Shown: positions 18,930-54,884 of the stretch, in pieces
Position numbering within the stretch: the stretch's first letter is position 1
Layout of the letters: each line of letters starts with the position of its first letter
Assembly (NCBI GenBank): GCA_016932045.1
Contig: JAFGDO010000002.1
Coordinates: 2,553 to 66,552 of the forward strand
Reading direction: 5' to 3'
Origin: Candidatus Dojkabacteria bacterium
GTDB lineage: Bacteria > Patescibacteriota > Dojkabacteria > JAHIVN01
DNA: 64,000 bases
Notes under the pieces: model-generated
Databases searched by the model: none
Told to the model about the DNA's origin: nothing
What the model saw: only the letters and a program-made list of their open reading frames with translations
Program-made: the position numbers and the translations under genes

Positions 18930-21674
18930 ATGAAAAAATCAAGAGTTTGGATTCTGTTGCTTTTTATTTTCCTAGTAGGTCTCGGCGGAGCCGCTGTATG
19001 GATCGGCTGGCGTCTTCAACAGGAAGAAGAAGTTATTCCACAGGAAAGCGAAGCTGCAGCAGGTGACCATCAATGTATAGGTTACAATAACAATCCAGAT
19101 GATTGGGGGCATGTTGATTTTTGTTTATCTGGTACGAGTACTGCTTGTAATGAAGCACAGGCAGAATACTATGCAGGGAAAGGTTGCAGAGGATGTTGTT
19201 CAAAGATGATCCCTTGTACTAAACAACAAGTTGATTATGACAATGATTACAAAGTAGTCGTATACGGTCCTAATCCTGGTGGAGGAGAGTGGTGTAGGGA
19301 GTATCTACCGGGAGATGATGGGAGTCGGAAGTGTGGACGAGACACGCCTGATCCTGATACTTGGGACTGGACAAATTGTACTGTGTGCGATGATGTCCAA
19401 GCGGAATGGGATTTTGATTCGCAGCCCGGGAAAGTTGTTTTAAGAATTACAAGTGCAGCTATGCACGATATGGACAATATAAATAGCTCACATAATCAAG
19501 ATGATGTGCCAGCGATAATGTCAAAGCAAAGAATGAGAGTCGAAATAAATAGATATGACGCAGGGGGCAATGTCATAGGTTCAGCACAGAATATCTCAGG
19601 ACAATTAGAGTTCTTACCAGATAATTGTTCTTTAACCTATAAACTTGGGAAAAGTAACGCTGGTTGCAACTATGGGAGAGACTGTGCTATTGATCCGAAC
19701 GATCTTTGTTGTGATGGAAATGGCCCGCGATGGGGAACGTGGAATGGGGGCTATAGGTGTAATTTATCAAATACTAGAGAATACACCTTCGATGTTGATC
19801 GCAACGCAGATAGTTATGGATATACTTTCTATGTAGAGGGTTTTAGTCCATTTACCAACTCACAGTGGAAGACGGCTGATACTTGCAAGGGGTTTGTGGA
19901 TGCACCTGAGCAGTTTAATTGCGGAGATCCCTGTACAAATCCTCAGGGATCTTGTGATGACGGGAGTAATTGTATTGATCTTAGAGATATTATTCCAGCA
20001 GGAGAAGAAGCTTGTGATGGATATGTGTGTTGTGTAGGAGATGATTTCATTGATGAATTTGGTAATGTGAATTGTCCTTTCAGCGAACATGTAGCTAGTG
20101 GATGTAGATGTCTTGAAACTATTCAGTGTGACAGTATGTCCTCACCTCAGGCAGTTGGAGATACTATCACGGTGCAGCAGGAGGGTGATACATTCGTGAT
20201 TACAGTACAGGGAACAGATGGTGATGGAACGATCAGACAGATCTCCATATGTTCAGCTGTTGCAAATCAGCCAGATGAGTATTATCGGAGGGGACTAGAG
20301 GTATGGAATTGTGAGGAAACTCAATCTGCTGATAATACTTTTACAATTACTCGAACTTATGCATCATTAGTCGACGGTCAGGGTGATGATGATGTTTTAA
20401 ATCCTGATGGACTGGATATTAGTGCAAACAGCATAGTGTTCGCAGCTAATTTATGGGATGAGCCGGATAGAAGTATATTTTGCTCATCAAATCCAGGCTA
20501 TGGCGATACATCTCATGGTATTTTATATGGGAATTATTGTTCTCAGGATCCTGCCGCTTGTGACCTGTGTAACTTAGGAACAAATAGCTGTAGGATGATT
20601 TTACAACTGGCAGAAGAAGAGTGCGATTGTACTTCGATCCAGAGAAGTCCTAGTGGTGATACGATTGCCCCAGGAAGTAATGTATGGGTTCAAGTTACTG
20701 ATTCTTGTGAGATAGGCTATAGTGAAGTCGAATGGTTTTGGAGCGAAGGAGAAACTGGTACGCCTCAGCAGACGAACTTCAGTGATAGGATACCTGGGCC
20801 AAGTGATGATCCTGAGCTGAACCATAGCGTGATTTTTTCCGTTCCCGTAACAGCAAGCGGGACAATATGCATTTGGGCACGAACTCAAGGTGAGGATGAT
20901 CCTGATTGCCGGGATTGTTTTAATATTGGAGGCGAAGAGGAACCAGCTTACGCAGCAGTAAAGACGAGCGAGATGGTATGTATAAATAATAATAGTGCAG
21001 CAAGGATAACATATAGAATTCATGTAAGGAATATATCAGGAGTAGTAGGTACAATTGATTATGTAGAAGACACATATGATTCAAGGATACAAACAAGCTG
21101 GGTAAGCGGTATAAGCCCGCTTCCATATGAGCACACAGGAAACGTGATAAGGTGGGATAATAATGATACTGGATATGTCCTGCAGCCAAATGATGGTGCA
21201 GCTGGTGGAGCAGATGAGATAGAGTTCAGCTATATAGTGACAGTACCATCAGAATATTTTGGCACGTGGGAGGGAGGAGTATTTGTACCGTATCAGTATA
21301 GGAATCATGCTGTCGTCAAGCCGAGAGACGAGGAACCCATAGAACTGGCAACAGTAGTAAGTATTCAATGTGCCGTCGGTACAGGTATTTTTAGCAGTGC
21401 AGTGAAGGATATGTTAATTGGTCTAATACTTATTCTGCTTGGATTGACTATGATAAGGATACATGAAAGTACCTATAAATACCTTATACCAATAGAATAT
21501 GCATATAAAGAGAGTGTTATAGGTCTGAAAAATGGTGTAAATATGGTTAGAACTGAATGCAAAGCTGTACTAGATAAGTGTAAAACGTTTGTGTTTGAGA
21601 GGTTTAAGCTTACAAGCAAAGAAAGATTTGAACGTAAAATTGTAAGAAGAGCAGAAAAGAAAAAAGGGACCTAG
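18930..21674 (+). CDS. Giant Cys-rich surface protein (914 aa) with N-terminal signal-anchor, DUF11-like C-terminal module, C-terminal TM helix and basic cytoplasmic tail
   Basis: N-terminus MKKSRVWILLLFIFLVGLGGAAVWIGWRL. More than 60 Cys in the ectodomain. C-terminal TYRIHVRNISG...DYVEDTYD resembles the DUF11 conserved repeat. Then a TM helix IGLILILLGLTMI and the tail ...SKERFERKIVRRAEKKKGT. Confidence 0.6.
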   Translation: MKKSRVWILLLFIFLVGLGGAAVWIGWRLQQEEEVIPQESEAAAGDHQCIGYNNNPDDWGHVDFCLSGTSTACNEAQAEYYAGKGCRGCCSKMIPCTKQQVDYDNDYKVVVYGPNPGGGEWCREYLPGDDGSRKCGRDTPDPDTWDWTNCTVCDDVQAEWDFDSQPGKVVLRITSAAMHDMDNINSSHNQDDVPAIMSKQRMRVEINRYDAGGNVIGSAQNISGQLEFLPDNCSLTYKLGKSNAGCNYGRDCAIDPNDLCCDGNGPRWGTWNGGYRCNLSNTREYTFDVDRNADSYGYTFYVEGFSPFTNSQWKTADTCKGFVDAPEQFNCGDPCTNPQGSCDDGSNCIDLRDIIPAGEEACDGYVCCVGDDFIDEFGNVNCPFSEHVASGCRCLETIQCDSMSSPQAVGDTITVQQEGDTFVITVQGTDGDGTIRQISICSAVANQPDEYYRRGLEVWNCEETQSADNTFTITRTYASLVDGQGDDDVLNPDGLDISANSIVFAANLWDEPDRSIFCSSNPGYGDTSHGILYGNYCSQDPAACDLCNLGTNSCRMILQLAEEECDCTSIQRSPSGDTIAPGSNVWVQVTDSCEIGYSEVEWFWSEGETGTPQQTNFSDRIPGPSDDPELNHSVIFSVPVTASGTICIWARTQGEDDPDCRDCFNIGGEEEPAYAAVKTSEMVCINNNSAARITYRIHVRNISGVVGTIDYVEDTYDSRIQTSWVSGISPLPYEHTGNVIRWDNNDTGYVLQPNDGAAGGADEIEFSYIVTVPSEYFGTWEGGVFVPYQYRNHAVVKPRDEEPIELATVVSIQCAVGTGIFSSAVKDMLIGLILILLGLTMIRIHESTYKYLIPIEYAYKESVIGLKNGVNMVRTECKAVLDKCKTFVFERFKLTSKERFERKIVRRAEKKKGT

Positions 21675-21775
21675 TTGTTATTTCCTCACAAGGCAAATTG
21701 ATCATCTATGCACTTTTTTTCTGACGCATCTTATGTTATATTATCGGCATAGTAAATATTCGTATATTTTCTACG

Positions 21776-22903
21776 ATGAAGAGATCTAGAATTATCATGC
21801 TGGTTATCCTTTTTATAACCCTTATACTTGGTGGAGTAGCGATATGGCTGGGCTTGAGACTCGGGAAAGAAGAGGAAGTAACTCCAGAGGAAAGTGAGGC
21901 TGCATCAGAAGAGGTAACTAATGCTGATACGCTTAAAACTCAGGCGCAAAGAGAAGAATTTAACAGAAAATGGCAGACGTTTATTGCAGATGAAACTAAA
22001 ACTTGGAGGGACTATGTTGAATATGCAATGGGGGAAGGAGCTAGATACGAATGCACAAGAGTTATAATGAGTAATGTGGGAGCTGAAAGCCTCTATGGCT
22101 GTGATTTAAATGCGCTATTTGTTATTTATGATTTGCCAACCTATATTTCTACTCAGCCGATTGGTCCTCAGGATCCGAATTTAAATGCAGTACTTAATGA
22201 ACTGATAACTGACTCGGGTCTTCTGCAGAAAGCTGCTGAGATGGATATAATTACATTAGATGAGACATTTTTCAATTCCCCATCAAAAGATATGTTTGAA
22301 AGGTTTAGTAAGGTAGAAACTGCAAGGGTAGCCATAGGTGATCAGTTTGTGAAGCGTGTTGATTTTGAGGCGGTTGTAATTTACTTTCACAATGAATATG
22401 ATCCACAAATTCCTCTTGAGCAGGCGAAAGAAGCGGCAAAGACAAAGATGGATATTCTCTACGGGCGACTGGAGACAGGTGAAATCACGATGAGACAGGC
22501 AGGAGAAGAAATCATAAATGATAATATTCAAGGTGATACTACTGGAGTATCTCTGACTCAACTTGATCGATTGTACAAAGAGAATGCTTATATAGAAGTT
22601 ATAGGTCATGAGTTTGGGGAGAGAATTTTTAAAGATGAGGTTTATGATGAGGAGCTGCGAAGTCTTGGCGAAGGTCAGATGAGTACAGTAAGACTCTGCA
22701 AGGATTATAAATTTACCCCGGAGGAGTTATTTGAGGCAAATGGTGAGACTACTGAATTTCCACTAGTTGATAGCTGCTATATAATTTTTAAAGTAAATAA
22801 AATAACTTTTGGGCTGGGAAGAGAGTTTTCAGGAGATACATTGGAGGAGGTAGAAGATAGTATACAAGATAATTACGACCAAGCAGTGGACTATAATCTA
22901 TGA
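21776..22903 (+). CDS. Membrane-anchored/exported protein (375 aa) sharing the N-terminal anchor module of the 914-aa protein
   Basis: N-terminus MKRSRIIMLVILFITLILGGVAIWLGLRLGKEEEVTPEESEAA is paralogous to residues 1-45 of the 18930 gene. The rest is acidic and soluble. Confidence 0.5.
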   Translation: MKRSRIIMLVILFITLILGGVAIWLGLRLGKEEEVTPEESEAASEEVTNADTLKTQAQREEFNRKWQTFIADETKTWRDYVEYAMGEGARYECTRVIMSNVGAESLYGCDLNALFVIYDLPTYISTQPIGPQDPNLNAVLNELITDSGLLQKAAEMDIITLDETFFNSPSKDMFERFSKVETARVAIGDQFVKRVDFEAVVIYFHNEYDPQIPLEQAKEAAKTKMDILYGRLETGEITMRQAGEEIINDNIQGDTTGVSLTQLDRLYKENAYIEVIGHEFGERIFKDEVYDEELRSLGEGQMSTVRLCKDYKFTPEELFEANGETTEFPLVDSCYIIFKVNKITFGLGREFSGDTLEEVEDSIQDNYDQAVDYNL

Positions 22904-25446
22904 ATCATTTAAAAAATAAAACAATTTGTTTCATCTTTTTGTGTTTAGGAATTCTTGTATTCTCGTTTTTTCTTGTTATAAAGCCGAGTCCTGTATCTGC
23001 CGGTTCTGTACTTGATCATGAGTTTTATATAGAGATACCTACAGGTCGAAGAGTACCATTACAAGGAGCTTCGGTACATTCTGTAGGAGTTGATAATTAT
23101 GGTCAATGGGGGAATAAAGACTACATTACACGTTCAAATTATTGCGGTTATGGTAGTGCTGCAGGAGGAGCCCACTGCAGGACAAAAGCATCTTGCGATC
23201 ATTGGGGATATCATGCTCCATTTCTTCCAAAAAGTTACAATAGTGCATCAGACGTCTATACGCCAAGAGCGGATGTATATGGGTGGTGCGGGAATTTAGA
23301 TGCATCACATGCGCATTTCTATAATGGTCAAACGATGACACAGCGATTCCCTTGGTTTCCCTTTGAAAATGGGAATCCAAGAGGTTCGAGTACTTCATAT
23401 TGGACTGCTGAGATAGTTTCGCAGCAGAATAATAAGCTTCAATTATGGGGTAAAGCTCAGCCGGATGACCATGAAGCACGTAAAGCGACTGATGATTGCA
23501 GAAGAACGGACGAACGGGAAACTATATTGCAGGAATGGGGTAGATTAGACGATTTCCCGAACAAAGCTTCTTGGAAGCAGGGAGAGATTGTTTACGATGG
23601 AGTCGGAGGGAATGCTCTTCATGGAACCGTAAGATGGATTCTTCATGAAACACAGACTGTGTCAGACCTCAAGATAAGTGGCAAGGTTTATTGCCAAGAT
23701 GATGGAGATCCTACTCCTTATCCTGTTAATGGTGCAACTGTTTCTATATATAAAGATGGTGTGAAAGAAACTGTAGATGTTGCAACGAATGAAAGTGGAA
23801 ACTTTTCATATGATGCAAGATCATATGAGGGAGGTTTTGCTGTCAGATTTAAGAATTTACCAAGTGGGACTTTAAGAACCGGACTACCATATGATCAGAT
23901 GGTTGGTCCAACAGCTGTAAATTGTGCTAGTGGCGTTGTAACGGGTTGTCAAGAAGGTTCTCCTCCGGGAAGTTTCTGTGGGACGAACAATTTATCTTAT
24001 GAGTATTGCGGTCTTGGTAGTGGCAATCATTCAGGATTTGATTTCAGATATACTAATTGTTCAGCAGGATTGGTTTGTGAAAATTTGGCTTCAGATATTG
24101 ATCTTACCTCTATTAGCGAAGATGACTTAAGGGCGGAAGATATGGAAATTGCTATATCTGCAGAGATGAATGCAAATAATGTATCTGTAAGTTCAACTGG
24201 TGCCTATACTTATTACACAAACATCCCGGGTGCCTATTTCGCTGGTGATCCTGCTAATACTGGAAGCTATACAGATGGTCCAAATACGACAATTACAATT
24301 CCGGCAGGTACAAGTATTAGCGATGAAGACTACTTTGTCAGTGTAGTTATCCAGGGTAGCATAGGTTCAACTAATTATGCTTCTGGCTGCTATTCGACTG
24401 GAAATTGTGTACAAGGAGGTGAGAATTGTATTTTAGCATTTCAGCCTACAGCAGGAACGTGTGATTGCAGGAGTATGTCAGTTAGTCCTGATCCAACTAC
24501 AGTAAATCCTGTTGCTGGTTCAAATATTGTCTACCAGATAAATATTGCCGATACGAATGGAGTCCCGTGTAATGTAGAGGACAGTGAAATAAATTGGGAA
24601 GTATATGAGGGTAGTCCGACACTTGAAGTTATCGAGAGAGGTCCAACAACTGTTCCCGGGAATCCCGGACCGACTCACTATATTATATACAGAATTCCCG
24701 ATGGAGTTCCCGAAGGAACCCAGTATTGTGTCCGTGCCGAAGTGGATAATTTTGGAGTAAGAGAAGCGTGTAATGCTTGTTTTACGACAGGTACTGACGA
24801 GGTGCCTCTATTTGTTGCAGTAAAGACAAGTGAAGTTGTTTGTATTAATAACAATACAGCAGCACGAATTACTTATCGTATAAGAGTAAGAAATATATCG
24901 GGAATGGAGGGGATAATTGATTATGTTGAGGACACCTATGATTCAAGGATACAAACTAGTTGGGTGAGCAGTATTAGTCCGACTCCCTATGATCATACGG
25001 GGAATGTAATTAGGTGGGATAATAATGATACCGGATACACATTACAACCAAATGACGGAACTACGGGTGGAGCGGATGAGATGGAGTTCAGTTATATTGT
25101 GACAGTACCATCAGAATATTTTGGTACGTGGGAAGGTGGGGTATTTGTACCGTATCAATATAGGAATCATGCTATCGTCAAGCCAAGAGACCAAGGTCAG
25201 ATTGAACTCAGTACTGTTGTACAAATTCAATGTGCGGGTGTTACTACCGGTATTTTTGACAAAGCATTGACAAGTGTTTTGATAGGACTATTACTAGTTA
25301 TGTTTGGAGGAGTATTGCTAAAAGCTGATAGTTATGTTTATAGGTTCGTGCCTCAATTCAATTCTTATATTAAAAAAGTTATTCCTAGCAGGAAAGAAAG
25401 ATTTGAGAAAAAAGCGATAAAGAGAGTAGATGAGGGGGAGAAGTAG
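22900..25446 (+). CDS. Giant Cys-rich surface protein paralog (848 aa), signal peptide plus DUF11-like C-terminal module plus TM plus basic tail
   Basis: The C-terminal roughly 150 aa are about 85% identical at protein level to the 914-aa protein (VKTSEVVCINNNTAARITYRIRVRNISG...FGTWEGGVFVPYQYRNHAIVKPRD). TM helix LIGLLLVMFGGVLL and tail ...PSRKERFEKKAIKRVDEGEK. Confidence 0.6.
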   Translation: MNHLKNKTICFIFLCLGILVFSFFLVIKPSPVSAGSVLDHEFYIEIPTGRRVPLQGASVHSVGVDNYGQWGNKDYITRSNYCGYGSAAGGAHCRTKASCDHWGYHAPFLPKSYNSASDVYTPRADVYGWCGNLDASHAHFYNGQTMTQRFPWFPFENGNPRGSSTSYWTAEIVSQQNNKLQLWGKAQPDDHEARKATDDCRRTDERETILQEWGRLDDFPNKASWKQGEIVYDGVGGNALHGTVRWILHETQTVSDLKISGKVYCQDDGDPTPYPVNGATVSIYKDGVKETVDVATNESGNFSYDARSYEGGFAVRFKNLPSGTLRTGLPYDQMVGPTAVNCASGVVTGCQEGSPPGSFCGTNNLSYEYCGLGSGNHSGFDFRYTNCSAGLVCENLASDIDLTSISEDDLRAEDMEIAISAEMNANNVSVSSTGAYTYYTNIPGAYFAGDPANTGSYTDGPNTTITIPAGTSISDEDYFVSVVIQGSIGSTNYASGCYSTGNCVQGGENCILAFQPTAGTCDCRSMSVSPDPTTVNPVAGSNIVYQINIADTNGVPCNVEDSEINWEVYEGSPTLEVIERGPTTVPGNPGPTHYIIYRIPDGVPEGTQYCVRAEVDNFGVREACNACFTTGTDEVPLFVAVKTSEVVCINNNTAARITYRIRVRNISGMEGIIDYVEDTYDSRIQTSWVSSISPTPYDHTGNVIRWDNNDTGYTLQPNDGTTGGADEMEFSYIVTVPSEYFGTWEGGVFVPYQYRNHAIVKPRDQGQIELSTVVQIQCAGVTTGIFDKALTSVLIGLLLVMFGGVLLKADSYVYRFVPQFNSYIKKVIPSRKERFEKKAIKRVDEGEK

Positions 25447-25646: not shown

Positions 25647-25718
25647 TGAGGGCGAGAGGACTCGAACCTCCAACCTAACGGTTAAGAGCCGTTTGCTCTA
25701 CCATTGAGCTACGCCCCC
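25647..25718 (-). tRNA. tRNA-Lys (anticodon CUU)
   Basis: The reverse complement folds as a cloverleaf. Acceptor GGGGGCG/CGCCCUC (one G-U). D arm GCUC-AAUGGU-AGAGC. Anticodon stem AACGG/CCGUU with loop CUCUUAA. T arm GGAGG-UUCGAGU-CCUCU. Discriminator A. CCA not encoded. Confidence 0.8.
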
Positions 25719-25785
25719 GATTTAAATGTACTTTTAATTATATAGTAACTTCCCTTTTTGCTCTACTCCCGCTTCTCCCGCATAG

Positions 25786-25876
25786 CAAGATAAGAGCCGT
25801 TTGCTCTACAATTGTCCGCCCTAGGCGCCTGCCTGTCGGCAGACAGGGATCAGCCTTGGGCAGAAGCTACGCCCCC
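25786..25876 (-). pseudogene. tRNA-Lys 5'-half remnant (acceptor/D-arm/anticodon 5' side) interrupted by a 49-nt hairpin element
   Basis: Minus sense reads GGGGGCGUAGCUU, then a 49-nt insert, then CAAUUGUAGAGCAAACGGCUCUUAUC. This copies the first roughly 38 nt of the adjacent tRNA-Lys, but the 3' half is absent. Confidence 0.6.
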
Positions 25877-26026
25877 ATACTATGCTAAAGCTTCATATGG
25901 TAAACCTAAGCCTCTACTTTCATGATCAATAATCAATTTTCAATTAGAAATGAATAATTTTAGATTAGTAATTATTCACTCAGTAACGTAATAAGAGAGC
26001 AAGTATATCACAACTCCTTTAATTTC

Positions 26027-26100
26027 TGCACCTGAGAGGATTCGAACCCCTAACCCCTCGTTCCGAAGACGAGTGCTCTATCCAGTTGAGCTACAGGTGC
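26027..26100 (-). tRNA. tRNA-Arg (anticodon UCG)
   Basis: Acceptor GCACCUG/CAGGUGC. D arm GCUC-AACUGGAU-AGAGC. Anticodon stem CUCGU/ACGAG with loop CUUCGGA. T arm AGGGG-UUCGAAU-CCUCU. Discriminator A. Confidence 0.8.
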
Positions 26101-26321
26101 AATACAACACCACTATCCATAGATTATATTTAAATGTGACCTCAAACTCAAGAAAAGGAGCTTTAAAAAAGAGGTCTCATAGGATATGGTGGTGTAAAAT
26201 TAAGTTGTATTTTCGACAAAAAATTCTGAGCAAAGTTGACATCATCCATATAAACTGCGATATTATATAGATACACAAATAATTCTTATTTTTTTAAAAT
26301 TTAAGTTTTGAATTTTGCTTT

Positions 26322-44804: not shown

Positions 44805-45932
44805 TTAGCAATATCCTCTGCTTCCATAATTCACCTTTGTATAAATTGCAGTATACATCTTGTTTGCATCTGCCTTAGTTAAGGTCTTTGAGAGATGCCT
44901 TAGTGTTATTCTAACTAAAACATTCTTCTGATCATCACTGCAACCCAACCTATCTTTAGCAACCTTTGGTAAATCTCTATACTCTATCTCATCCAGCACT
45001 TTTACACTTTCAAGGATATCTTCTTGTTTACCGAGGGCATTTCTTATGTCATCATTTATATCCTCTTCTACGTAACCTCTTGGTACACAGTAAGACATAT
45101 CGCGGCTGATAGAAGGCTGATCAGAGACTTCCCTGTACTTTTCTAGATTCTGCATTTGCTCGGCAATACGAGTATTATCCGACCTTATATAACGGATATC
45201 ATCCATGTCCTTCTTTGTCATTACCAATCTATCAAGACCCATTCCCATTGCCCAACCTGAGTATATATCAGGATCAAGTCCTGCGTTATTTAATATCTCA
45301 TCATTTATCAATCCTGATTCAAGAATTTCAATGTCCCGGTCATCTTTTACTACATTAACTTCAACTCCCTTTCTCGTATATGGATGGGGCATATCTACAA
45401 TTCGTTCTTTCCAGCCGGGAGCCGCAAGTGTGATGATACCTCGAATAACCTTCATCAAATCGTCTTGGGATATATGTGTCTTGCCTCCTTTTACAACTCG
45501 CCATACATCAAGCTGATGACAAACGCCAAGGTGAATCTTATCTGTAATATCTCTTCTGTAGACAAGTCCAGGTAGCATAATAACAACATCTTTCCATTCA
45601 GGATCTTTTGAAAGTTTCTTGAGAATATCCAGCATCTTTGCTGATGTATGAGTTCTAAGCATTCTTTTCTTATCCACATAATGGGTATAGGTTGAGGACC
45701 TGCTAGTGTTGTCTTTTGGAATCAATAGCTTGTCATAGTTATCTTCGATGTTTACAATCGGATTCAGCCGGTAAACTAGGACTTCGCTATCTGGATGATG
45801 CTTTTTCATGTACTCCCTGATTTCAAGATACAACAGCTTAATTGCATGATCCTTTTTGCATTTTGTTAGATCTTTAATTTCTAGATACTTCTTCAGTTCT
45901 GCCTTTTTTATTGGTTTGATATGAATATTCAT
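44805..45932 (-). CDS. Monomeric phenylalanyl-tRNA-synthetase-like protein: PheS-type class II catalytic core fused to a C-terminal FDX-ACB anticodon-binding domain
   Basis: Motif 2 YRRDITDKIHLGVCHQLDV (PheS pattern [FY]RRDxxDxTHxxxFHQxEG). Motif 3 GWAMGMGLDRLVM. C-terminal YREVSDQPSISRDMSYCVP...VLDEIEYRD...KNVLVRITLRHLSKTLTKADAN follows the FDX-ACB pattern. Confidence 0.65.
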   Translation of the reverse strand: MNIHIKPIKKAELKKYLEIKDLTKCKKDHAIKLLYLEIREYMKKHHPDSEVLVYRLNPIVNIEDNYDKLLIPKDNTSRSSTYTHYVDKKRMLRTHTSAKMLDILKKLSKDPEWKDVVIMLPGLVYRRDITDKIHLGVCHQLDVWRVVKGGKTHISQDDLMKVIRGIITLAAPGWKERIVDMPHPYTRKGVEVNVVKDDRDIEILESGLINDEILNNAGLDPDIYSGWAMGMGLDRLVMTKKDMDDIRYIRSDNTRIAEQMQNLEKYREVSDQPSISRDMSYCVPRGYVEEDINDDIRNALGKQEDILESVKVLDEIEYRDLPKVAKDRLGCSDDQKNVLVRITLRHLSKTLTKADANKMYTAIYTKVNYGSRGYC

Positions 45933-49987: not shown

Positions 49988-50524
49988 TTACAACTTATAC
50001 TCTAGGTGAATATCATTGGGTTCGAGCTTATATAGTTCCTTATTAATATCTTTCGCAAGTGTGCAGCCCATGTGTTTGTAGAAGTCTACTGTATTCATAT
50101 TTTCTGTAGCCGATACATATAGTTTTTTTGCGCCAAGTCGTCTTGCTTCTTTTGCAGCTATTCTAAAAAGTTTTCCGCCAAGCCCCTTTTTTCTGTATGT
50201 ACGGCCTATGTGGAGGAATTTCAGTTGAAGTGTGTCTTCATTCTTTCCTATGAACTTTTGATCAAGTATGACTACAGCTATCATTTTTTGTCCGACAAAT
50301 CCTCCTAAAAAGTAACCTCCTCTATCAAAGCAGTTAGTAAGTATTGGTTGGTATTTTTCGACTTCGCCTGGTGGCCAGCCTTTTGCTTCAAAATTAACTT
50401 TCTTGAGTTTAATACCTTCATCAATGTTAACATAGACAGAGTCAACAGATTCACTGCGATCTATATCAGTCCAGATTTGTGGAAGATCGGCTTTTTTCAA
50501 TTTTCGAAACATTATATTATCCAT
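49988..50524 (-). CDS. GNAT-family N-acetyltransferase (start trimmed so as not to overlap tRNA-His)
   Basis: Motif A RKKGLGGKLFRIAAKEARRLG. The track ORF extends to 50671 across the tRNA-His gene, so the start is taken at MDNIMFRKL (50524). Confidence 0.7.
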   Translation of the reverse strand: MDNIMFRKLKKADLPQIWTDIDRSESVDSVYVNIDEGIKLKKVNFEAKGWPPGEVEKYQPILTNCFDRGGYFLGGFVGQKMIAVVILDQKFIGKNEDTLQLKFLHIGRTYRKKGLGGKLFRIAAKEARRLGAKKLYVSATENMNTVDFYKHMGCTLAKDINKELYKLEPNDIHLEYKL

Positions 50525-50592
50525 GATCGGGGTTATTATACATTGTTTTTTGATACAGATCGATTGTAAAGAGGATTGTGGAAGGGGATAGA

Positions 50593-50669
50593 TGGGGTGG
50601 TCGGTGGGATTTGAACCCACGACAGCTCGCTCCACAGGCGAGTGCTCTACCAACTGAGCTACGACCACC
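50593..50669 (-). tRNA. tRNA-His (anticodon GUG) with encoded G-1 and CCA
   Basis: G-1 plus acceptor GUGGUCG/CGACCAC. D arm GCUC-AGUUGGU-AGAGC. Anticodon stem CUCGC/GCGAG with loop CUGUGGA. T arm GUGGG-UUCAAAU-CCCAC. Discriminator C, then CCA. Confidence 0.85.
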
Positions 50670-50967
50670 ATACTTCACAAAATTTCACTTTGTTCAATTT
50701 GTTTTGTATGGTAAACCACAAAATCACTGAACAATTAAAATTTTGATTGAAGTATGAGTGTCTTACGAAGTTTTAACAGAGTAAGACACCATACAGTACA
50801 ATATTATACCTGATTATTAACTCTCCTGGAAAGTATATTTGAAGAGCATTGGTTATAATTTGGAAATTATATCCCGTAGAAGATTCGCTGCGCTTATCTC
50901 CACGGGATTATATATCTCTACGATTTTTCTGCTCCCACTAAGCGGGATTGAAAAATCTAGAGCTATA

Positions 50968-50994
50968 TAAAAAAGACTCTATCATTATAGAGTC
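50968..50994 (-). terminator. Rho-independent terminator downstream of the tRNA-Arg(UCU) transcription unit
   Basis: Minus-sense AGACUCUAU-AAUG-AUAGAGUCU followed by UUUUUU. Confidence 0.45.
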
Positions 50995-51123
50995 TGGGGC
51001 AGTGGCATATATAAAATAACATTTCTTTCGCCTAATTGCAAGATTATTTGGGCGTGTCAGCACGTTGACTATGTGGCTGCTAATATACTATTAGAGCAAA
51101 AAATTGGTTCATTGGATATTAAA

Positions 51124-51263
51124 GCAAAGTGCGCTCGACAGGACTCGCCTGTCCGCCTTGGGCGGAAACCTGTAAACCTGCTTTTGTCTGAGATAGCAAA
51201 GTGCGCTCGACAGGACTCGCCTGTCCGCCTTGGGCGGAAACCTGTAAACCTGCTCTTATCTGA
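51124..51263 (-). repeat. Two tandem 70-nt direct repeats, each a copy of the tRNA-Arg(UCU) 3' end (acceptor and T-arm 3' strands) carrying a 20-nt hairpin insertion
   Basis: Units gcaaagtgcgctcgacaggactcgCCTGTCCGCCTTGGGCGGAAacctgtaaacctgct... occur at 51124-51193 and 51194-51263, and the genuine tRNA starts at 51264 in the same phase. The units differ at 3 positions. Confidence 0.75.
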
Positions 51264-51273
51264 GATAGCAAAG

Positions 51274-51346
51274 TGCGCTCGACAGGACTCGAACCTGTAA
51301 CCTACTGCTTAGAAGGCAGTTGCTCTATCCATTGAGCTACGAGCGC
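51274..51346 (-). tRNA. tRNA-Arg (anticodon UCU)
   Basis: Acceptor GCGCUCG/CGAGCGC. D arm GCUC-AAUGGAU-AGAGC. Anticodon stem ACUGC/GCAGU with loop CUUCUAA. T arm ACAGG-UUCGAGU-CCUGU. Discriminator A. Confidence 0.8.
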
Positions 51347-51360
51347 ACTTTGCTTTGTCA

Positions 51361-51486
51361 AAACAAGAAAGGCAGTTGCTCCCGTGTCCCGTAAATTGAG
51401 CGTTAGCAAAATTCTACGGGATATCCAATTGTCAGCCCAAGGCTGCCTGTCCTGGTCTAAGCATGCCAGGGATGAGCCTAGGGCTC
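51361..51486 (-). repeat. tRNA-Arg 5'-half-like remnant plus 55-nt structured hairpin element (homologous to the insert in the tRNA-Lys remnant)
   Basis: Minus sense reads GAGCCCUAGGCUCAUCCCUGG...CCAGGACAGGCAGCCUUGGGCUGA-CAAUUG, then a diverged GGGAGCAACUGCCUUUCUU that resembles the tRNA-Arg D-stem/anticodon stem. Confidence 0.5.
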
Positions 51487-51629
51487 AAGCAATCGGCATA
51501 CACTATCTAACTCTATGATTATAATAAAAATATATGATAAACTCAATTATTATAGAGATTACTGGCGCTTAAATTGTATAATTGGATGAAAAAGATTAAA
51601 ATTAGTATATTCTTTTTTCAGAAAAGCTT

Positions 51630-52793
51630 ATGAATCAATTACTTCCAGCGACAAAGGAATATTTCAAAAAGGTCTATGAAAGTATTATAGGGTCGGTGAA
51701 GAAAAATAGAGATGTTCATCTGATTGGTCTGCGTGAGTCTGGAAAGACCTACGTGATGAAGATGCTTGCTCTTTCAAAGCAAGGGGTATCCTTCAGGAAA
51801 TTATATCCAAGGGTAGAGGTCTTCTTTATTGATCAAGATCTTGTTGGGGAGGAGGAATTTGTATGGCTGCAGCTTGCTAAGCAGATGGACATCGAGTCTT
51901 CAGAAAATATTTCCGTACTTTTCCACAAGATTCTATCTTATGTCGATGATAAGACAAGGAATAAGGGATACACTTTAGTTCTAATTCTAAATCAGCTACT
52001 CACGTGGCGATCATTATCCTCAGATCTGATAGATAAGCTTCTTAAGATAAAAACTATTTTTTCAGAGAAGGTTAAATTTGTGATTATCTCAAATGCCTTC
52101 GAAGATTATTCGTCAAGTCAGGATTATCTAGACACATTATCAATTCTCAATTTTAAAAGGATTTGGTTTCCGATTCTTTCCTTAGAAGATACCAAAAAGC
52201 AAATAGCTGAAAATAGAGTAAAAGCGGGAAAAAGTATTAAAGAAATAGAGAGTGAAAGCTATTTTGAGATAATTTTTAGACTAAGCGGGGGGATTCCCGG
52301 GATAACGAAGAAGTTGATGTCGGTCCCATTAAAAGGCATTGAAGGTGGACCTGAGGATCTGCTTAAGAATAAATCTATTATTCAGCAGCTGTTATTTACG
52401 TTAAAAGGTATAGATTTTAAGTATCTTGATTTACTCAAAAAAGGTAAATACAGCGAAGAATTATATAAATCAGGATTGACCGATAGGAAAGGGAGAATCA
52501 AGAGCTCGCTTATAATGAATTTTCTAGAAAACTTCGACTATAAAACGATGCTTAGGCAAAAAGCTATTCCGGAGCAATTATTATCGGTTCAGGAGAAAAA
52601 GGTATATGATCTTTTGAAGAAAAATAAAGGCGAAACTGTTGCAAGAGAGGAAATTGCTCAAGTTATGTGGGGAGAAGAATATACTCAGAAGTACTCAGAT
52701 TGGGCTATTGATTCATTAATAAAAAGAATTAGACAGAAGATTCCTACAGTCAAGATAGTAACCCAAAAAGGTAAGGGTTATGTTTTTAAATAG
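51630..52793 (+). CDS. P-loop NTPase fused to C-terminal OmpR/PhoB-type winged-helix DNA-binding domain
   Basis: Walker A HLIGLRESGKTYVMKML and a candidate Walker B VFFIDQD. C-terminal ...AREEIAQVMWGEEYTQKYSDWAIDSLIKRIRQKIP...KGKGYVFK follows the trans_reg_C pattern. GC about 34%. Confidence 0.55.
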   Translation: MNQLLPATKEYFKKVYESIIGSVKKNRDVHLIGLRESGKTYVMKMLALSKQGVSFRKLYPRVEVFFIDQDLVGEEEFVWLQLAKQMDIESSENISVLFHKILSYVDDKTRNKGYTLVLILNQLLTWRSLSSDLIDKLLKIKTIFSEKVKFVIISNAFEDYSSSQDYLDTLSILNFKRIWFPILSLEDTKKQIAENRVKAGKSIKEIESESYFEIIFRLSGGIPGITKKLMSVPLKGIEGGPEDLLKNKSIIQQLLFTLKGIDFKYLDLLKKGKYSEELYKSGLTDRKGRIKSSLIMNFLENFDYKTMLRQKAIPEQLLSVQEKKVYDLLKKNKGETVAREEIAQVMWGEEYTQKYSDWAIDSLIKRIRQKIPTVKIVTQKGKGYVFK

Positions 52794-52805: not shown

Positions 52806-54884
52806 ATGACCGAAGAAAAGCCACAAAGAGATCCTGAAACCGACTATTTCCTTAAATCCTACGCAAAGCGTCTGCAAGTAAGCGCAGAAAGACAAGAGAC
52901 TGTTGTCTTTCTGCCAGAATTAGCTTTGCCCGAAGTTCGAGAAGGGCTCGATGCCCTCTTTGGTAGTGAAGCAGTATACGAAATTTCCGAAACTACAGGT
53001 GAAACTTCTGAATATGACTCATCAACTACATACGTTGGAGTAGGGGATACAGTTGATTCGACTGAGCGAATTGAGCAAGCTCTAGGAGATTCTGCTGTAG
53101 GGCATTTGCCTGATGAAGAGAGAAGGGCTATTGCCGAGCAATCTCGAAGGCTACAACTCTTTTTCCATGATTGTTTAAGTACTGATCCTCAAGCAATTCG
53201 AGCCGTTCTTAAAGAGAATCCCAATATGGATGTTGAGGCAAGAAAGTATTACTACAGAATGTATCTACTTCGGGTTGTTATTGATCACATAATTGGGGAG
53301 TATAGAGCCAGGGGGTGGGATACAGATGAAGCCTACTTACCACTAGGATTTGTATACGGCAGTGCAGCAGAAAAGACACCTGAGGGAACTGAGATAATTG
53401 AACTCAAGGCAGATAATGTGCCTTGTCCAGCTAGACGTCTTGTAAGACCAACAAGTGATATTGACGTCTGTGTACCAATGAGTATTGGCCGGGTTAAAGA
53501 TTCTTTAGAGCTTAGAAGAAAACTAGAAAAAGCCAGGGATGTCTTGGATGGTACAACTTTATATGACGAAGTAATGACTGGGGTAACTGAATCATTTGAA
53601 AGACATGGGATGCAAGCGGCTCATCGCTTTGCAAATGCACGAGAATTTGCAAGAGGAACACTAAGTATGCGAGAGATTTCAGATCATTCTCTACTGGGGC
53701 TTGTGATCTATATGGCAAGAAGGGTGATCGGTTATAAATTCGTACACGAAGTATCTTATAAAAATGTAAGACATCCAATTATTGATATTACGACCCCGGA
53801 ACATAATCTTACTAAAAGTACATTGTACAATCCACATGAGTTTGCTCGAGCGGTTTCAACAGACGCCTTTTCTTTTACAGACGGTGAGAGCAGGGTAGGG
53901 TTTCTCCTGGGAGTTCGTTTTATCGCAGGTAGACCAATTGCTGTGGGGGACATTGTTGCACTACAGCATAGAAGCGCCGAGTCCCAAAAAGCGGGGCCTT
54001 TAAAACCAAGGGAAATTTTCTTTGAAAGGCTTTATGCTTCTTACTCGGATATCAAAGCTGTTGCTTACTCGTTCATGCGTAGAATACTAGCTATGGACGA
54101 TGAAGTCATCGGAACAAATCTTAGAGATTTAATCCACCCGCGACTCTTATTCCTCATGGGCAGTCAGGTTCTAAAGCTTGATGTTTGTACAGAAAGGTTT
54201 GCTTTTTCAAGACTTGCTGCTTATGCTGAACCCTATAATAAGGAGCACATTGATTATTTTTTACATCACTTCCTTAGGGTTTTAAGTAGTATTGCATTAA
54301 GGATTATTTCTCAAGATAAAGCTGCAAGAGCTATCAAATTAGAGGAGATGGATTTAAGTGAAATTTATAATCTCTTATCTCTTGGAACTCGAAGGGCTCT
54401 TGCTATGTATTTACAGATGCTAGAGGTTATGGGAATTCATCACATGTGGAACGTTTTGGCAAGGAACCTAATTCTTGCTGGAAGAGTTGAGGTGTGTCAG
54501 GGTGACCTATCGACCAGACAGCACTATGAAATTCTTGCCTACCCAGAGACTCTGGGTGAGGTTGGTATTGCGTCTGAACTGCTTGAGGGCTCCGATCAGT
54601 TATTTCCAAGTGTTTTTACAGCTACACGTGATACACAGAGCGATTTGCCTACAATTAACATCTTGCAGTTACTAAGCAGGCCGAAGATAGATGAGATAGA
54701 AGCTCAAGTAGAAGAGCATTATGCAGAGCAAAAGCAAGATACACGTTTCCGTCAGAGGTTTGCTTCGGTTTTACTAAGTATTTTGCATGAGAATCCCTAT
54801 TTGTGGAATGGTGTGGCTGATCTGCTTCAGCTACCAGGACAACTCAGACAGATGCTAAAACACACACTAAGAATCTCCCGTTAA
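52806..54884 (+). CDS. Orphan 692-aa protein, compositionally foreign (GC about 44%), with a possible polymerase-beta-type nucleotidyltransferase motif
   Basis: Starts 12 nt after the ATPase-wHTH gene. Contains LGFVYGSAAEK...(about 30 aa)...PTSDIDVCVP (a GS...DhDh-like arrangement with an unusually long spacer), then a Leu-rich helical C-terminal half. No other motif recognised. Confidence 0.4.
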   Translation: MTEEKPQRDPETDYFLKSYAKRLQVSAERQETVVFLPELALPEVREGLDALFGSEAVYEISETTGETSEYDSSTTYVGVGDTVDSTERIEQALGDSAVGHLPDEERRAIAEQSRRLQLFFHDCLSTDPQAIRAVLKENPNMDVEARKYYYRMYLLRVVIDHIIGEYRARGWDTDEAYLPLGFVYGSAAEKTPEGTEIIELKADNVPCPARRLVRPTSDIDVCVPMSIGRVKDSLELRRKLEKARDVLDGTTLYDEVMTGVTESFERHGMQAAHRFANAREFARGTLSMREISDHSLLGLVIYMARRVIGYKFVHEVSYKNVRHPIIDITTPEHNLTKSTLYNPHEFARAVSTDAFSFTDGESRVGFLLGVRFIAGRPIAVGDIVALQHRSAESQKAGPLKPREIFFERLYASYSDIKAVAYSFMRRILAMDDEVIGTNLRDLIHPRLLFLMGSQVLKLDVCTERFAFSRLAAYAEPYNKEHIDYFLHHFLRVLSSIALRIISQDKAARAIKLEEMDLSEIYNLLSLGTRRALAMYLQMLEVMGIHHMWNVLARNLILAGRVEVCQGDLSTRQHYEILAYPETLGEVGIASELLEGSDQLFPSVFTATRDTQSDLPTINILQLLSRPKIDEIEAQVEEHYAEQKQDTRFRQRFASVLLSILHENPYLWNGVADLLQLPGQLRQMLKHTLRISR

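What the first reader, a model, noticed from the sequence alone, without database searches (positions are those of the whole stretch)
51124..51263. Tandem 70-nt repeats that re-copy the 3' end of tRNA-Arg(UCU) with a 20-nt hairpin insert (att-site-like scars, co-transcribed in the tRNA trailer)
Seen directly: two head-to-tail 70-nt units are in exact phase with the real tRNA. Each begins with the tRNA's last roughly 24 nt (acceptor 3' strand plus T-stem 3' strand) but replaces the T-loop region with CCTGTCCGCCTTGGGCGGAA (a CCGCC-ttg-GGCGG hairpin). The two units differ at only 3 of 70 positions. Partial tRNA 3'-end duplications are the classic footprint of integrase-mediated insertion at tRNA genes, but here nothing lies between the copies. 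That suggests serial integration and excision scars, or expansion by replication slippage of a scarred att site. Because the tRNA is on the minus strand and the next terminator is at 50968-50994, the repeats should be transcribed as a structured 3' trailer of the pre-tRNA. They also create a spurious 75-aa ORF (51073..51300).
Basis: seen in the sequence. Interest (0 to 1): 0.6.

Follow-up and report, generated by a model that had tools for sequence, protein, structure and literature searches.

The report
Tandem tRNA-Arg tail pseudo-copies with hairpin
Just downstream of a normal arginine tRNA gene in a candidate-phyla-radiation bacterium lie two near-identical 72-base leftovers of the gene's tail, each interrupted by a small GC-rich hairpin that in this sequence occurs only in debris beside two tRNA genes; they look like genomic relics rather than a working part.

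Summary
The repeat is real. Two head-to-tail units lie directly 3' of tRNA-Arg(UCU) on the minus strand. The period is 72 nt, not 70, and the units differ at 2 of 72 positions. Each unit holds tRNA positions 47-73 plus the 7-nt trailer, with a 19-nt GC-rich hairpin inserted into the T loop (not replacing it).

An independent assembly of the same sample branches inside the unit, so at least two copies exist. The hairpin belongs to a small family with core GCCCWAGGC: 6 copies in 64 kb against 0.3 expected. All six lie in debris beside two tRNA genes. Besides the two units, this includes homologous 50-56-nt palindromes upstream of tRNA-Lys (inside a tRNA-Lys 5' fragment) and upstream of tRNA-Arg(UCU).

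I found no integrase, no mobile element, no attP-like match, no Rfam family and no relative carrying the unit. The lineage is isolated: the nearest PheS is 69% identical.

Best reading: a decayed tRNA 3' fragment that picked up a palindromic mini-repeat and was doubled by slippage or unequal recombination between its 25-nt flanking repeats. It is then carried passively in the pre-tRNA trailer. An integrase origin for the first fragment is possible but has no direct support. Interest is moderate to low.

The parts
51273..51346 (-). Functional tRNA-Arg(UCU) gene. The discriminator A is at 51274. No CCA is encoded.
   Evidence: ARAGORN; Rfam tRNA model 77.6 bits, 51274-51346.
51195..51266 (-). 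Proximal 72-nt unit (unit B). In RNA sense it reads: 19-nt head, TTACAGGTT (tRNA 47-55), 19-nt hairpin insert, CGAGTCCTGTCGAGCGCA (tRNA 56-73), CTTTGCT trailer.
51123..51194 (-). Distal 72-nt unit (unit A). It is 70/72 identical to unit B, with the differences at 51183 and 51186.
   Evidence: The Logan contig L050 begins inside it at 51152.
51267..51291 (-). Third copy of the 25-nt direct repeat (7-nt trailer plus the last 18 nt of the real tRNA). The other copies are at 51123-51147 and 51195-51219. This repeat is the likely substrate for slippage or unequal recombination.
   Evidence: family D2; 3 matches, 0 in shuffles.
51220..51238 (-). 19-nt GC-rich insert in the T-loop position of unit B (RNA sense UCCGCCCAAGGCGGACAGG). 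It contains the hairpin UCCGCC-CAA-GGCGGA. The twin copy in unit A is at 51148-51166.
51347..51356 (-). 5' leader AAAGCAAAGU. It extends the acceptor stem by pairing with the trailer ACUUUGCU(UU). With the distal trailer copy (51121-51137) it gives 17 perfect bp; with the two proximal copies it gives 15 bp.
   Evidence: I1-I3; MFE fold.
51369..51381 (-). Exact 13-nt copy of tRNA-Arg(UCU) positions 22-34 (GAGCAACTGCCTT), lying 22 nt upstream of the gene. This is a 5'-side fragment.
   Evidence: D5.
51387..51421 (-). Hairpin UCCCGUAG...UUACGGGA in the leader (z = -4.2). A related stem lies at 50869-50905.
   Evidence: I5.
51432..51487 (-). E2: a GC-rich element of about 56 nt in the leader that folds as a long imperfect hairpin (its self-complementarity alone is not beyond shuffles). 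It has two inverted GCCCWAGGC hairpin arms and is followed by CAATTGGATA (like tRNA positions 13-21).
51518..51546 (-). Promoter-like site TTGAGT-17-TATAAT. It implies a leader of about 165 nt that includes E2.
   Evidence: This is a consensus match only.
50964..50995 (-). Terminator-like hairpin plus T run that closes the putative pre-tRNA transcript.
25791..25876 (-). Sister structure upstream of tRNA-Lys(CUU). It is a copy of tRNA-Lys positions 1-12 and 13-36, split by the 50-nt palindrome E1 (25815-25864). E1 is homologous to E2 and has two GCCCWAGGC arms.
51073..51300 (+). Spurious 75-aa ORF. It arises because the 72-nt period is a multiple of 3. Two minus-strand frames are also open across the array.

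Best explanation
The array is non-coding genomic debris made from the tRNA gene itself.

Proposed history (inferred):
1. A short copy of the 3' part of tRNA-Arg(UCU) came to lie just downstream of the gene. It covered the T arm, the acceptor 3' strand and the 7-nt trailer.
2. That dead copy acquired a 19-nt GC-rich hairpin in its T-loop position. The hairpin belongs to a small palindromic repeat family (core GCCCWAGGC). In about 75 kb of this genome the family occurs only in the tRNA-derived debris beside two tRNA genes.
3. The resulting 72-nt segment, bracketed by 25-nt direct repeats, was recently doubled by replication slippage or unequal recombination.

Proposed present behaviour (inferred):
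- The array is transcribed from a promoter about 165 nt upstream of the tRNA as part of a 3' trailer of about 300 nt.
- It is cut away when the CCA-less tRNA is matured after its discriminator base, and it has no function of its own.

Shown directly: the anatomy, the repeat statistics, the hairpin family and its restriction to the debris beside two tRNA genes, the second assembly's branch, and the absence of recombinase genes and database relatives.

Inferred: the order of events, the transcription and the lack of function.
For: - Period 72, 97% identity and 25-nt bracketing direct repeats.
- tRNA identity is 27/27 nt plus 7/7 trailer, split exactly at T-loop position 55/56 by the insert. The head of the unit is barely tRNA-like.
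- The units are not scoreable as tRNA or as any Rfam family.
- The unit folds no better than shuffles (z = -0.6).
- GCCCWAGGC occurs 6 times against 0.31 expected, always in debris beside tRNA-Lys or tRNA-Arg(UCU). It is absent from a further 10 kb.
- E1 and E2 are homologous: alignment score 49 against a shuffle maximum of 28.
- The insert matches the E1 arm at 13/15 positions.
- Same-orientation fragments of the neighbouring tRNA also flank tRNA-Lys, so fragment debris recurs here.
- The distal trailer copy pairs perfectly with the leader over 17 bp. This marks it as the ancestral trailer, with the units interposed later (I3).
- The Logan assembly starts a contig at a unit-specific 30-mer, consistent with a graph branch there.
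- Promoter-like and terminator-like sites bracket the whole region.
Against: - No related genome could be found, so neutrality, copy-number variation and the order of events are untested.
- All hairpin or palindrome inserts sit in or at the edge of tRNA loop positions (D-loop side twice, T loop once). That is what selection on RNA folding, or a target-specific insertion mechanism, would give. It is only weakly unlikely for random insertion (roughly 0.03-0.06).
- The perfect conservation of 34 nt next to a barely similar head is not what uniform decay of a simple duplicate predicts.
- Two stem positions of the hairpin show compensatory changes among the five distinct copies. This is not significant (59/500 shuffles).
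Confidence: 0.55

Rival explanations
1. Integrase scars. The first 3' fragment is the displaced attR-type copy left when an integrative element recombined with the T-arm-to-3'-end block of the tRNA gene. The element was later deleted down to about 20-47 nt, and the scar then duplicated.
For: - The identity block has a sharp edge at tRNA position 47, runs to the 3' end plus 7 nt, is in the same orientation and lies downstream of an intact gene.
- tRNA gene fragments are a well-documented product of element integration (PMC9897764, read).
- A distant relative shows serine recombinase genes abutting tRNA genes (L065).
Against: - No integrase, recombinase or transposase domain was found among the ORFs scanned in the 64-kb window or in about 12 kb of extra flank.
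- Only 47 nt lie between the repeats.
- No attP-like sequence was found in viral contigs, phage genomes or metagenomes.
- Site-specific excision leaves no scar.
- The 5'-side fragments upstream of tRNA-Arg(UCU) and tRNA-Lys are not what 3'-replacing integrases produce (my own knowledge of Williams 2002).
- The unit as it stands has a T-loop spacing that does not match the gene.
Confidence: 0.2
2. The GC-rich hairpins and palindromes (the unit insert, E1 and E2) are miniature mobile elements. They would insert preferentially into tRNA-like DNA at loop-coding positions, in the manner of REPINs, yeast mitochondrial GC clusters or cyanobacterial small dispersed repeats. On this view the array is a tRNA fragment that was hit by one.
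For: - The family is restricted to three tRNA-debris sites.
- E1 and E2 are homologous, yet they sit at the same D-arm position in the 5'-side debris of two different tRNAs.
- E1, inside a tRNA-Lys fragment, has CCTGTC/GACAGG at its centre, which is the T-stem sequence of tRNA-Arg(UCU), not of tRNA-Lys.
- Both insertion points read G-Y-T^C-R-A (seen in the sequence).
- GC-rich palindromes that are mobile, or that flank tRNA genes, are known in AT-rich mitochondrial genomes (PMC4478555, which cites Yin et al. 1981).
Against: - There are only 6 arms at 3 loci.
- There are no target-site duplications and no empty-site comparison.
- No RAYT or IS200-type gene is in the window.
- No copies were found anywhere else searched.
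- E2's palindrome extends into the flanking tRNA-derived CAATTGG, which suggests in-situ palindrome growth rather than insertion.
Confidence: 0.2
3. Functional RNA. The repeated hairpins, together with the long leader-trailer helix, would be processing or stability signals of the pre-tRNA, for example entry sites for a double-strand-specific RNase or blocks to 3' exonucleases. Alternatively the trailer would act as a separate small RNA, like known 3' external transcribed spacer RNAs.
For: - The array lies inside a putative transcription unit.
- The 15-17-bp leader-trailer helix is far beyond chance.
- The inserts are self-contained hairpins placed in loop positions, and the isolated unit folds as a T stem enclosing the hairpin.
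- Two hairpin stem pairs show double changes.
- There is precedent for GC-rich palindromes flanking tRNA genes in Neurospora mitochondria (cited in PMC4478555).
Against: - No conservation was found anywhere.
- No Rfam match.
- The unit's stability is not above shuffles (z = -0.6).
- The covariation is not significant.
- The other two tRNAs in the window lack such elements.
- The two SNPs between the units fall in the only stretch shared with the tRNA-Lys fragment junction, so that stretch is not conserved.
Confidence: 0.12
4. Assembly artefact: a collapsed or expanded repeat created by the assembler.
For: This is a short-read metagenome-assembled genome, and two 72-nt units cannot be spanned with unique flanks by one 150-nt read. 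The exact copy number therefore rests on the assembler.
Against: - The units differ at two positions.
- An independent k-mer assembly starts a contig at a unit-specific 30-mer, which implies two different continuations.
Confidence: 0.03

Closest known systems
tRNA gene fragments (att-type direct repeats) left by integrative elements at tRNA genes
   Same: A perfect copy of the 3' portion of the tRNA plus a few bases beyond it. It is in the same orientation, downstream of an intact gene, and has a sharp identity edge.
   Different: There is no integrase and no element: only 47 nt lie between the copies. The fragment is interrupted by a hairpin and is tandemly doubled. 5'-side fragments also lie upstream of two tRNAs.
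Minisatellite-type tandem duplication by slippage or unequal crossing-over between short direct repeats
   Same: Head-to-tail copies at 97% identity, with each unit bracketed by the same 25-nt repeat.
   Different: This explains the doubling only. It does not explain the origin of the first fragment or of the insert.
Small GC-rich palindromic repeats of AT-rich genomes: yeast mitochondrial GC clusters, Neurospora mitochondrial palindromes flanking tRNA genes, and bacterial REP/REPIN and cyanobacterial small dispersed repeats
   Same: Short GC-rich hairpin modules in a 37% GC genome, present in several copies and both orientations, sometimes paired into longer palindromes, and located next to tRNA genes.
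   Different: Very few copies were seen. No sequence similarity to those families was tested or claimed. No associated transposase was found. Here the modules sit inside tRNA-derived fragments, at loop positions.
Functional 3' external transcribed spacers of tRNA operons (for example the leuZ trailer sponge of E. coli; from my own knowledge)
   Same: A sequence co-transcribed 3' of a tRNA and released by 3' processing.
   Different: No conservation, no predicted target and no evidence of accumulation. The sequence is a self-copy of the tRNA.

Membership tests
Integrase att-site scar at a tRNA gene | A direct repeat identical to the 3' part of the tRNA, in the same orientation and downstream of an intact gene | tested here: met
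   The 25-nt block occurs 3 times, and tRNA positions 47-55 are also retained.
Integrase att-site scar at a tRNA gene | An integrase or recombinase gene adjacent to the tRNA or within the bounded segment | tested here: not met
   No recombinase or transposase domain was found in the Pfam scans of window ORFs or in the precomputed lists for the flanks.
Integrase att-site scar at a tRNA gene | Foreign element DNA (kb scale) between the repeats | tested here: not met
   Only 47 nt lie between copies of the 25-nt block. Of these, 9 are tRNA-derived and 19 belong to the hairpin insert.
Integrase att-site scar at a tRNA gene | A matching attP on a phage, plasmid or ICE | tested here: not met
   Viral-contig scans and phage BLAST found only phage tRNA genes or chance hits.
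Integrase att-site scar at a tRNA gene | Occupied versus empty site polymorphism among related genomes | not testable with these tools
   No related genome was found. The 17-mer scan of GTDB species representatives missed this lineage, the metagenome scan was empty, and the nearest PheS is 69% identical.
Tandem duplication by slippage or unequal recombination | Head-to-tail, near-identical units bracketed by a shared direct repeat | tested here: met
   Period 72, 70/72 identity, and a 25-nt repeat at each unit boundary.
Tandem duplication by slippage or unequal recombination | Copy-number variation in the population | not testable with these tools
   Only contig ends of the Logan assembly are visible.
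Miniature palindromic repeat family (REP/REPIN, GC-cluster type) | Several dispersed copies of one hairpin-forming sequence, beyond chance | tested here: met
   The GCCCWAGGC core occurs 6 times against 0.31 expected, at three sites and on both strands. 86.7% of stem cells are paired.
Miniature palindromic repeat family (REP/REPIN, GC-cluster type) | Evidence of mobility: target-site duplication, empty sites, or an associated transposase | tested here: inconclusive
   No target-site duplication is visible, no transposase is in the window and no other genomes are available. The same D-arm position is occupied beside two different tRNAs.
Structured functional RNA (Rfam family, or a conserved 3' spacer RNA) | A match to a described family | tested here: not met
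   Only the four tRNAs reach threshold, and nothing credible overlaps the units at E up to 10.
Structured functional RNA (Rfam family, or a conserved 3' spacer RNA) | Conservation with covariation in other genomes, or stability above background | tested here: not met
   No homologue was found anywhere. The unit has z = -0.6. Hairpin covariation is not significant.
CRISPR array or type III toxin-antitoxin RNA repeats | Repeats separated by unique spacers with cas genes, or repeats directly upstream of a toxin gene | tested here: not met
   The 'spacers' are 45/47 identical. No cas or toxin ORF is adjacent: the next features are a terminator and tRNA-His.

The most novel reading that the evidence does not exclude
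A previously undescribed family of tiny GC-rich palindromic elements in a candidate-phyla-radiation bacterium. These would home to, or grow within, loop-coding positions of tRNA-like DNA (D-arm and T-loop). Together with half-gene copies they would build nested shells of pseudo-tRNA around live tRNA genes. They could act as selfish DNA with tRNA-structure targeting, or as processing signals of long pre-tRNA transcripts.
Probability: 0.15. Interest if true: 0.6.

Novelty: new variant of a known kind. Interest (0 to 1): 0.35.

Why it matters
If the reading is right, this is ordinary genome debris, useful in three modest ways.
- It is a caution for annotation: there is a spurious 75-aa ORF, and assemblies break at the repeat.
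- It is a small example of how tRNA genes in reduced, AT-rich candidate-phyla-radiation genomes gather self-derived fragments and GC-rich palindromes.
- It could serve as a strain marker, because copy number should vary.

It would matter more if the hairpin family proved to target tRNA loop sequences or to guide pre-tRNA processing. Neither has been described for this bacterial group as far as I could find.

Tried and rejected
Searches for the same or related sequence elsewhere:
- Related loci by DNA. A scan of GTDB species representatives with the tRNA 3' 17-mer gave 48 hits, all single. They were chance matches plus one unrelated Patescibacteria tRNA-Arg(GCG) with no units.
- Metagenome scan with the unit-specific pattern: nothing.
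- Metagenome scan with the three conserved blocks of E1/E2: 12 copies of one coding-looking sequence, apparently a single organism (one contig labelled human gut), and one unrelated contig.
- Viral contigs and phage genomes: only phage tRNA genes and chance-level hits.
- Synteny through neighbouring proteins. The adjacent wHTH gene has no relative above 30% identity. PheS relatives are at most 69% identical and not syntenic.
- Looking for arrays through their translation. The exact-ORF look-up and a three-frame concatenated protein search both came back empty.
- Extending within the same genome through Logan contigs gave about 12 kb more sequence, with no further tRNAs or hairpins.

Ideas dropped:
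- CRISPR or a type III antitoxin array: the 'spacers' are near-identical and no partner genes are present.
- A tRNA-like gene on the plus strand: no cloverleaf.
- The 10-mer GCTCTTATCT shared by unit B and the tRNA-Lys fragment junction as a common element end: it is about chance level, and unit A mutates it.
- The 8-mer of the anticodon loop inside E2 in inverted orientation: chance level.
- The head of the unit as a clear anticodon-arm remnant: only p about 0.02.
- L139 as a viral homologue of the hairpin: it lies in a coding context and is probably chance.

Full report
**Organism and setting**

The window has about 37% G+C. Its proteins are identical to those of an NCBI 'Candidatus Dojkabacteria bacterium' assembly, on a contig of 134 kb. 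ARAGORN and Rfam find four tRNA genes, all on the minus strand:
- tRNA-Lys(CUU), 25647-25718
- tRNA-Arg(UCG), 26026-26101
- tRNA-His, 50593-50668
- tRNA-Arg(UCU), 51273/4-51346

**The observation**

Tandem Repeats Finder reports an array at 51123-51291 with period 72, 2.3 copies and 97% matches. The repeat finder resolves two full units, 51123-51194 and 51195-51266. They differ at two positions. A 25-nt block is present three times, and the third copy is the 7-nt trailer plus the last 18 nt of the real tRNA. Neither the 18-mer nor the 20-mer insert occurs in shuffled sequence.

Read in RNA sense, each unit is:

AUCUCAGAUAAGAGCAGGU - UUACAGGUU - [UCCGCCCAAGGCGGACAGG] - CGAGUCCUGUCGAGCGCA - CUUUGCU

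The second and fourth blocks are exact copies of tRNA positions 47-55 and 56-73. So the bracketed 19 nt are an insertion into the T loop, not a replacement of it.

The 19-nt head resembles the anticodon region only weakly. Its local alignment is reached by 2.4% of shuffles, and it resembles the D arm about equally well. I therefore do not claim that the fragment starts in the anticodon loop.

The rest of the description holds, including the terminator-like hairpin at 50995..50974 and the 75-aa ORF.

**Is it an assembly artefact?**

The two units carry distinguishing substitutions. An independent assembly of the same run (Logan, SRR13394437) starts one contig at window 51152. That contig begins with the 30-mer ACAGGCGAGTCCTGTCGAGCGCACTTTGCT, which occurs only in the units. 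A contig end there is what a branch in the assembly graph would give. A branch at that 30-mer needs two different successors: the unique flank and another unit. So at least two units are in the reads. The exact number still rests on the original assembler.

**Surroundings**

A promoter-like TTGAGT-17-TATAAT lies at 51546..51518. This is about 165 nt upstream of the tRNA. The same hexamer pair precedes tRNA-Arg(UCG).

The tRNA has no encoded CCA.

Its leader AAAGCAAAGU is complementary to the trailer ACUUUGCU. This extends the acceptor stem to 15 bp with the two proximal trailer copies, and to a perfect 17 bp with the most distal copy (I1-I3; fold). I take the better match to the distal copy as a sign that the distal flank is the original trailer, and that the units were interposed later. 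This is an inference.

No integrase, recombinase or transposase domain was found in any of the ORFs scanned across the 64 kb, or in about 12 kb of extra flank recovered from Logan contigs.

**The insert is part of a family**

The 9-mer core GCCCWAGGC occurs six times in the window against 0.31 expected:
- once in each unit
- twice, as inverted arms, in a segment of about 56 nt upstream of tRNA-Arg(UCU) (E2, 51432-51487)
- twice in a 50-nt palindrome upstream of tRNA-Lys (E1, 25815-25864)

It is absent from a further 10 kb of the same genome.

E1 and E2 are clearly homologous: local alignment score 49, against a shuffle mean of 12.4 and a maximum of 28. E1 is a significant palindrome and folds well (z = -3.7). 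The unit's insert matches the left arm of E1 at 13 of 15 positions.

Across the five distinct arms, 87% of stem cells pair and two stem positions show double changes. With five sequences this is not significant (59 of 500 shuffles reach it).

**tRNA debris recurs**

E1 sits inside an otherwise near-perfect copy of tRNA-Lys positions 1-12 and 13-36, about 70 nt upstream of the real tRNA-Lys. A further 10-nt fragment lies between them.

Upstream of tRNA-Arg(UCU), E2 is followed by CAATTGGATA (like positions 13-21). Next comes a separate hairpin (z = -4.2), and then an exact copy of positions 22-34.

In both loci the sequence just after the palindrome reads GACAATTG, where the real tRNAs have CAATGG.

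Fragments are always of the adjacent tRNA and in its orientation. tRNA-Arg(UCG) and tRNA-His have none.

**What it most likely is**

The simplest account has three steps:
1. A short dead copy of the tRNA's T arm, acceptor strand and trailer arose.
2. It acquired one arm of the local palindromic repeat.
3. It was recently doubled by slippage or unequal recombination between the 25-nt repeats that bracket it.

It would be transcribed as part of a trailer of about 300 nt and discarded during 3' maturation. The unit itself is not unusually stable (z = -0.6). It matches no Rfam family.

I put this at about 0.55.

**Rivals**

*An integrase origin for the first fragment.* This fits the sharp-edged, perfectly conserved block (T arm to 3' end plus 7 nt). 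It also fits what is known about tRNA gene fragments (PMC9897764). Against it:
- there is no recombinase
- there is no element
- there is no attP-like match
- the upstream 5'-side fragments do not fit a 3'-replacing integrase

I put it at about 0.2. It does not exclude the duplication step.

*The hairpins as a target-specific mobile mini-element.* Three things suggest this:
- the copies are confined to the debris beside two tRNA genes
- the same D-arm site is occupied beside two different tRNAs
- the centre of E1 (CCTGTC/GACAGG) equals the T stem of tRNA-Arg(UCU) rather than that of tRNA-Lys

However, copies are few, there are no target duplications, and E2's pairing runs into tRNA-derived flank. 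That last point looks more like growth of a palindrome in place. I put this at about 0.2.

*A functional role in pre-tRNA processing.* This has a precedent in the GC-rich palindromes that flank tRNA genes in Neurospora mitochondria (cited in PMC4478555). It also has some support from the long leader-trailer helix. No conservation could be shown. I put it at about 0.12.

*Artefact.* About 0.03.

**Limits**

Every route to related sequence failed:
- species-representative genomes
- two metagenome scans
- six viral scans
- phage BLAST
- protein-based synteny
- a search with the three open reading frames of the array

The nearest PheS is 69% identical, so the lineage is poorly sampled. Conservation, polymorphism and expression therefore remain untested. 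The read-level and whole-genome checks listed under next steps would settle the main alternatives.

Noticed in passing
window 25757-25876 (minus strand), upstream of tRNA-Lys 25647-25718: A near-perfect copy of tRNA-Lys positions 1-12 and 13-36, split by a 50-nt GC-rich palindrome (E1). There is also a second 10-nt D-arm fragment at 25757-25766. All of this lies in the spacer between tRNA-Arg(UCG) and tRNA-Lys.
   Followed up: yes
window 50869-50905 and 51387-51424: A second hairpin type shares the stem AUAUCCCGUAGAA / UUCUACGGGAUAU (13 nt exact, inverted pair). One copy is in the tRNA-Arg(UCU) leader and one lies between the terminator and tRNA-His. The loop of the leader copy resembles tRNA positions 10-16 (CGCTCAAT).
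   Followed up: partly
window 51518-51546 and 26123-26151 (minus strand): Both arginine tRNA genes are preceded by the same promoter-like hexamer pair, TTGAGT-17-TATAAT. It lies about 165 nt upstream in one case and about 22 nt upstream in the other.
   Followed up: no
window 51320 (start of Logan contig L049); approx. window 26052 and 25700 (inferred other ends of the L050 and L064 contigs): Independent Logan contigs of the same sample end inside or next to every tRNA or fragment region. The end at 51320 lies inside tRNA-Arg(UCU), after a 30-mer that includes 3 leader bases. This hints at a second sequence variant in the sample that diverges at tRNA position 28.
   Followed up: partly
window 44805-45932 (minus strand): The phenylalanyl-tRNA synthetase is a single 375-aa chain with a class II core plus an FDX-ACB domain (the mitochondrial-type architecture). 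655 close homologues were found; the few that carry names are candidate-phyla-radiation lineages.
   Followed up: no
window 49988-50671 (minus strand): The acetyltransferase ORF, as called by the gene caller on the Logan contig (227 aa), runs over the whole tRNA-His gene. An in-frame ATG at 50524 would give 178 aa without overlap, but that shorter product is not on record.
   Followed up: partly
window 18930-25446 (plus strand) and 52806-54884: Four ORFs (914, 375, 848 and 692 aa) next to the two tRNA loci have no Pfam match. The wHTH gene at 51630-52793 has no relative above 30% identity among 5.8 billion proteins.
   Followed up: no
L065 3357-8022 (a 159-kb contig of NCBI assembly GCA_964445935.1, found through its PheS homologue, 63% identical): Two serine recombinase genes abut tRNA-Gly, tRNA-Phe and tRNA-Leu genes. 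This looks like an integrated element at a tRNA cluster. No tRNA fragments were detected there.
   Followed up: partly
L073 1400-1460 (viral contig IMGVR_UViG_3300000558_000036): A T arm plus acceptor 3' strand plus CCA (GGTTACAGGTTCGAGTCCTGTCGAGCGCACCA) with no tRNA called over it. It could be an att-type fragment or an interrupted tRNA. It is unrelated in composition to the window.
   Followed up: no
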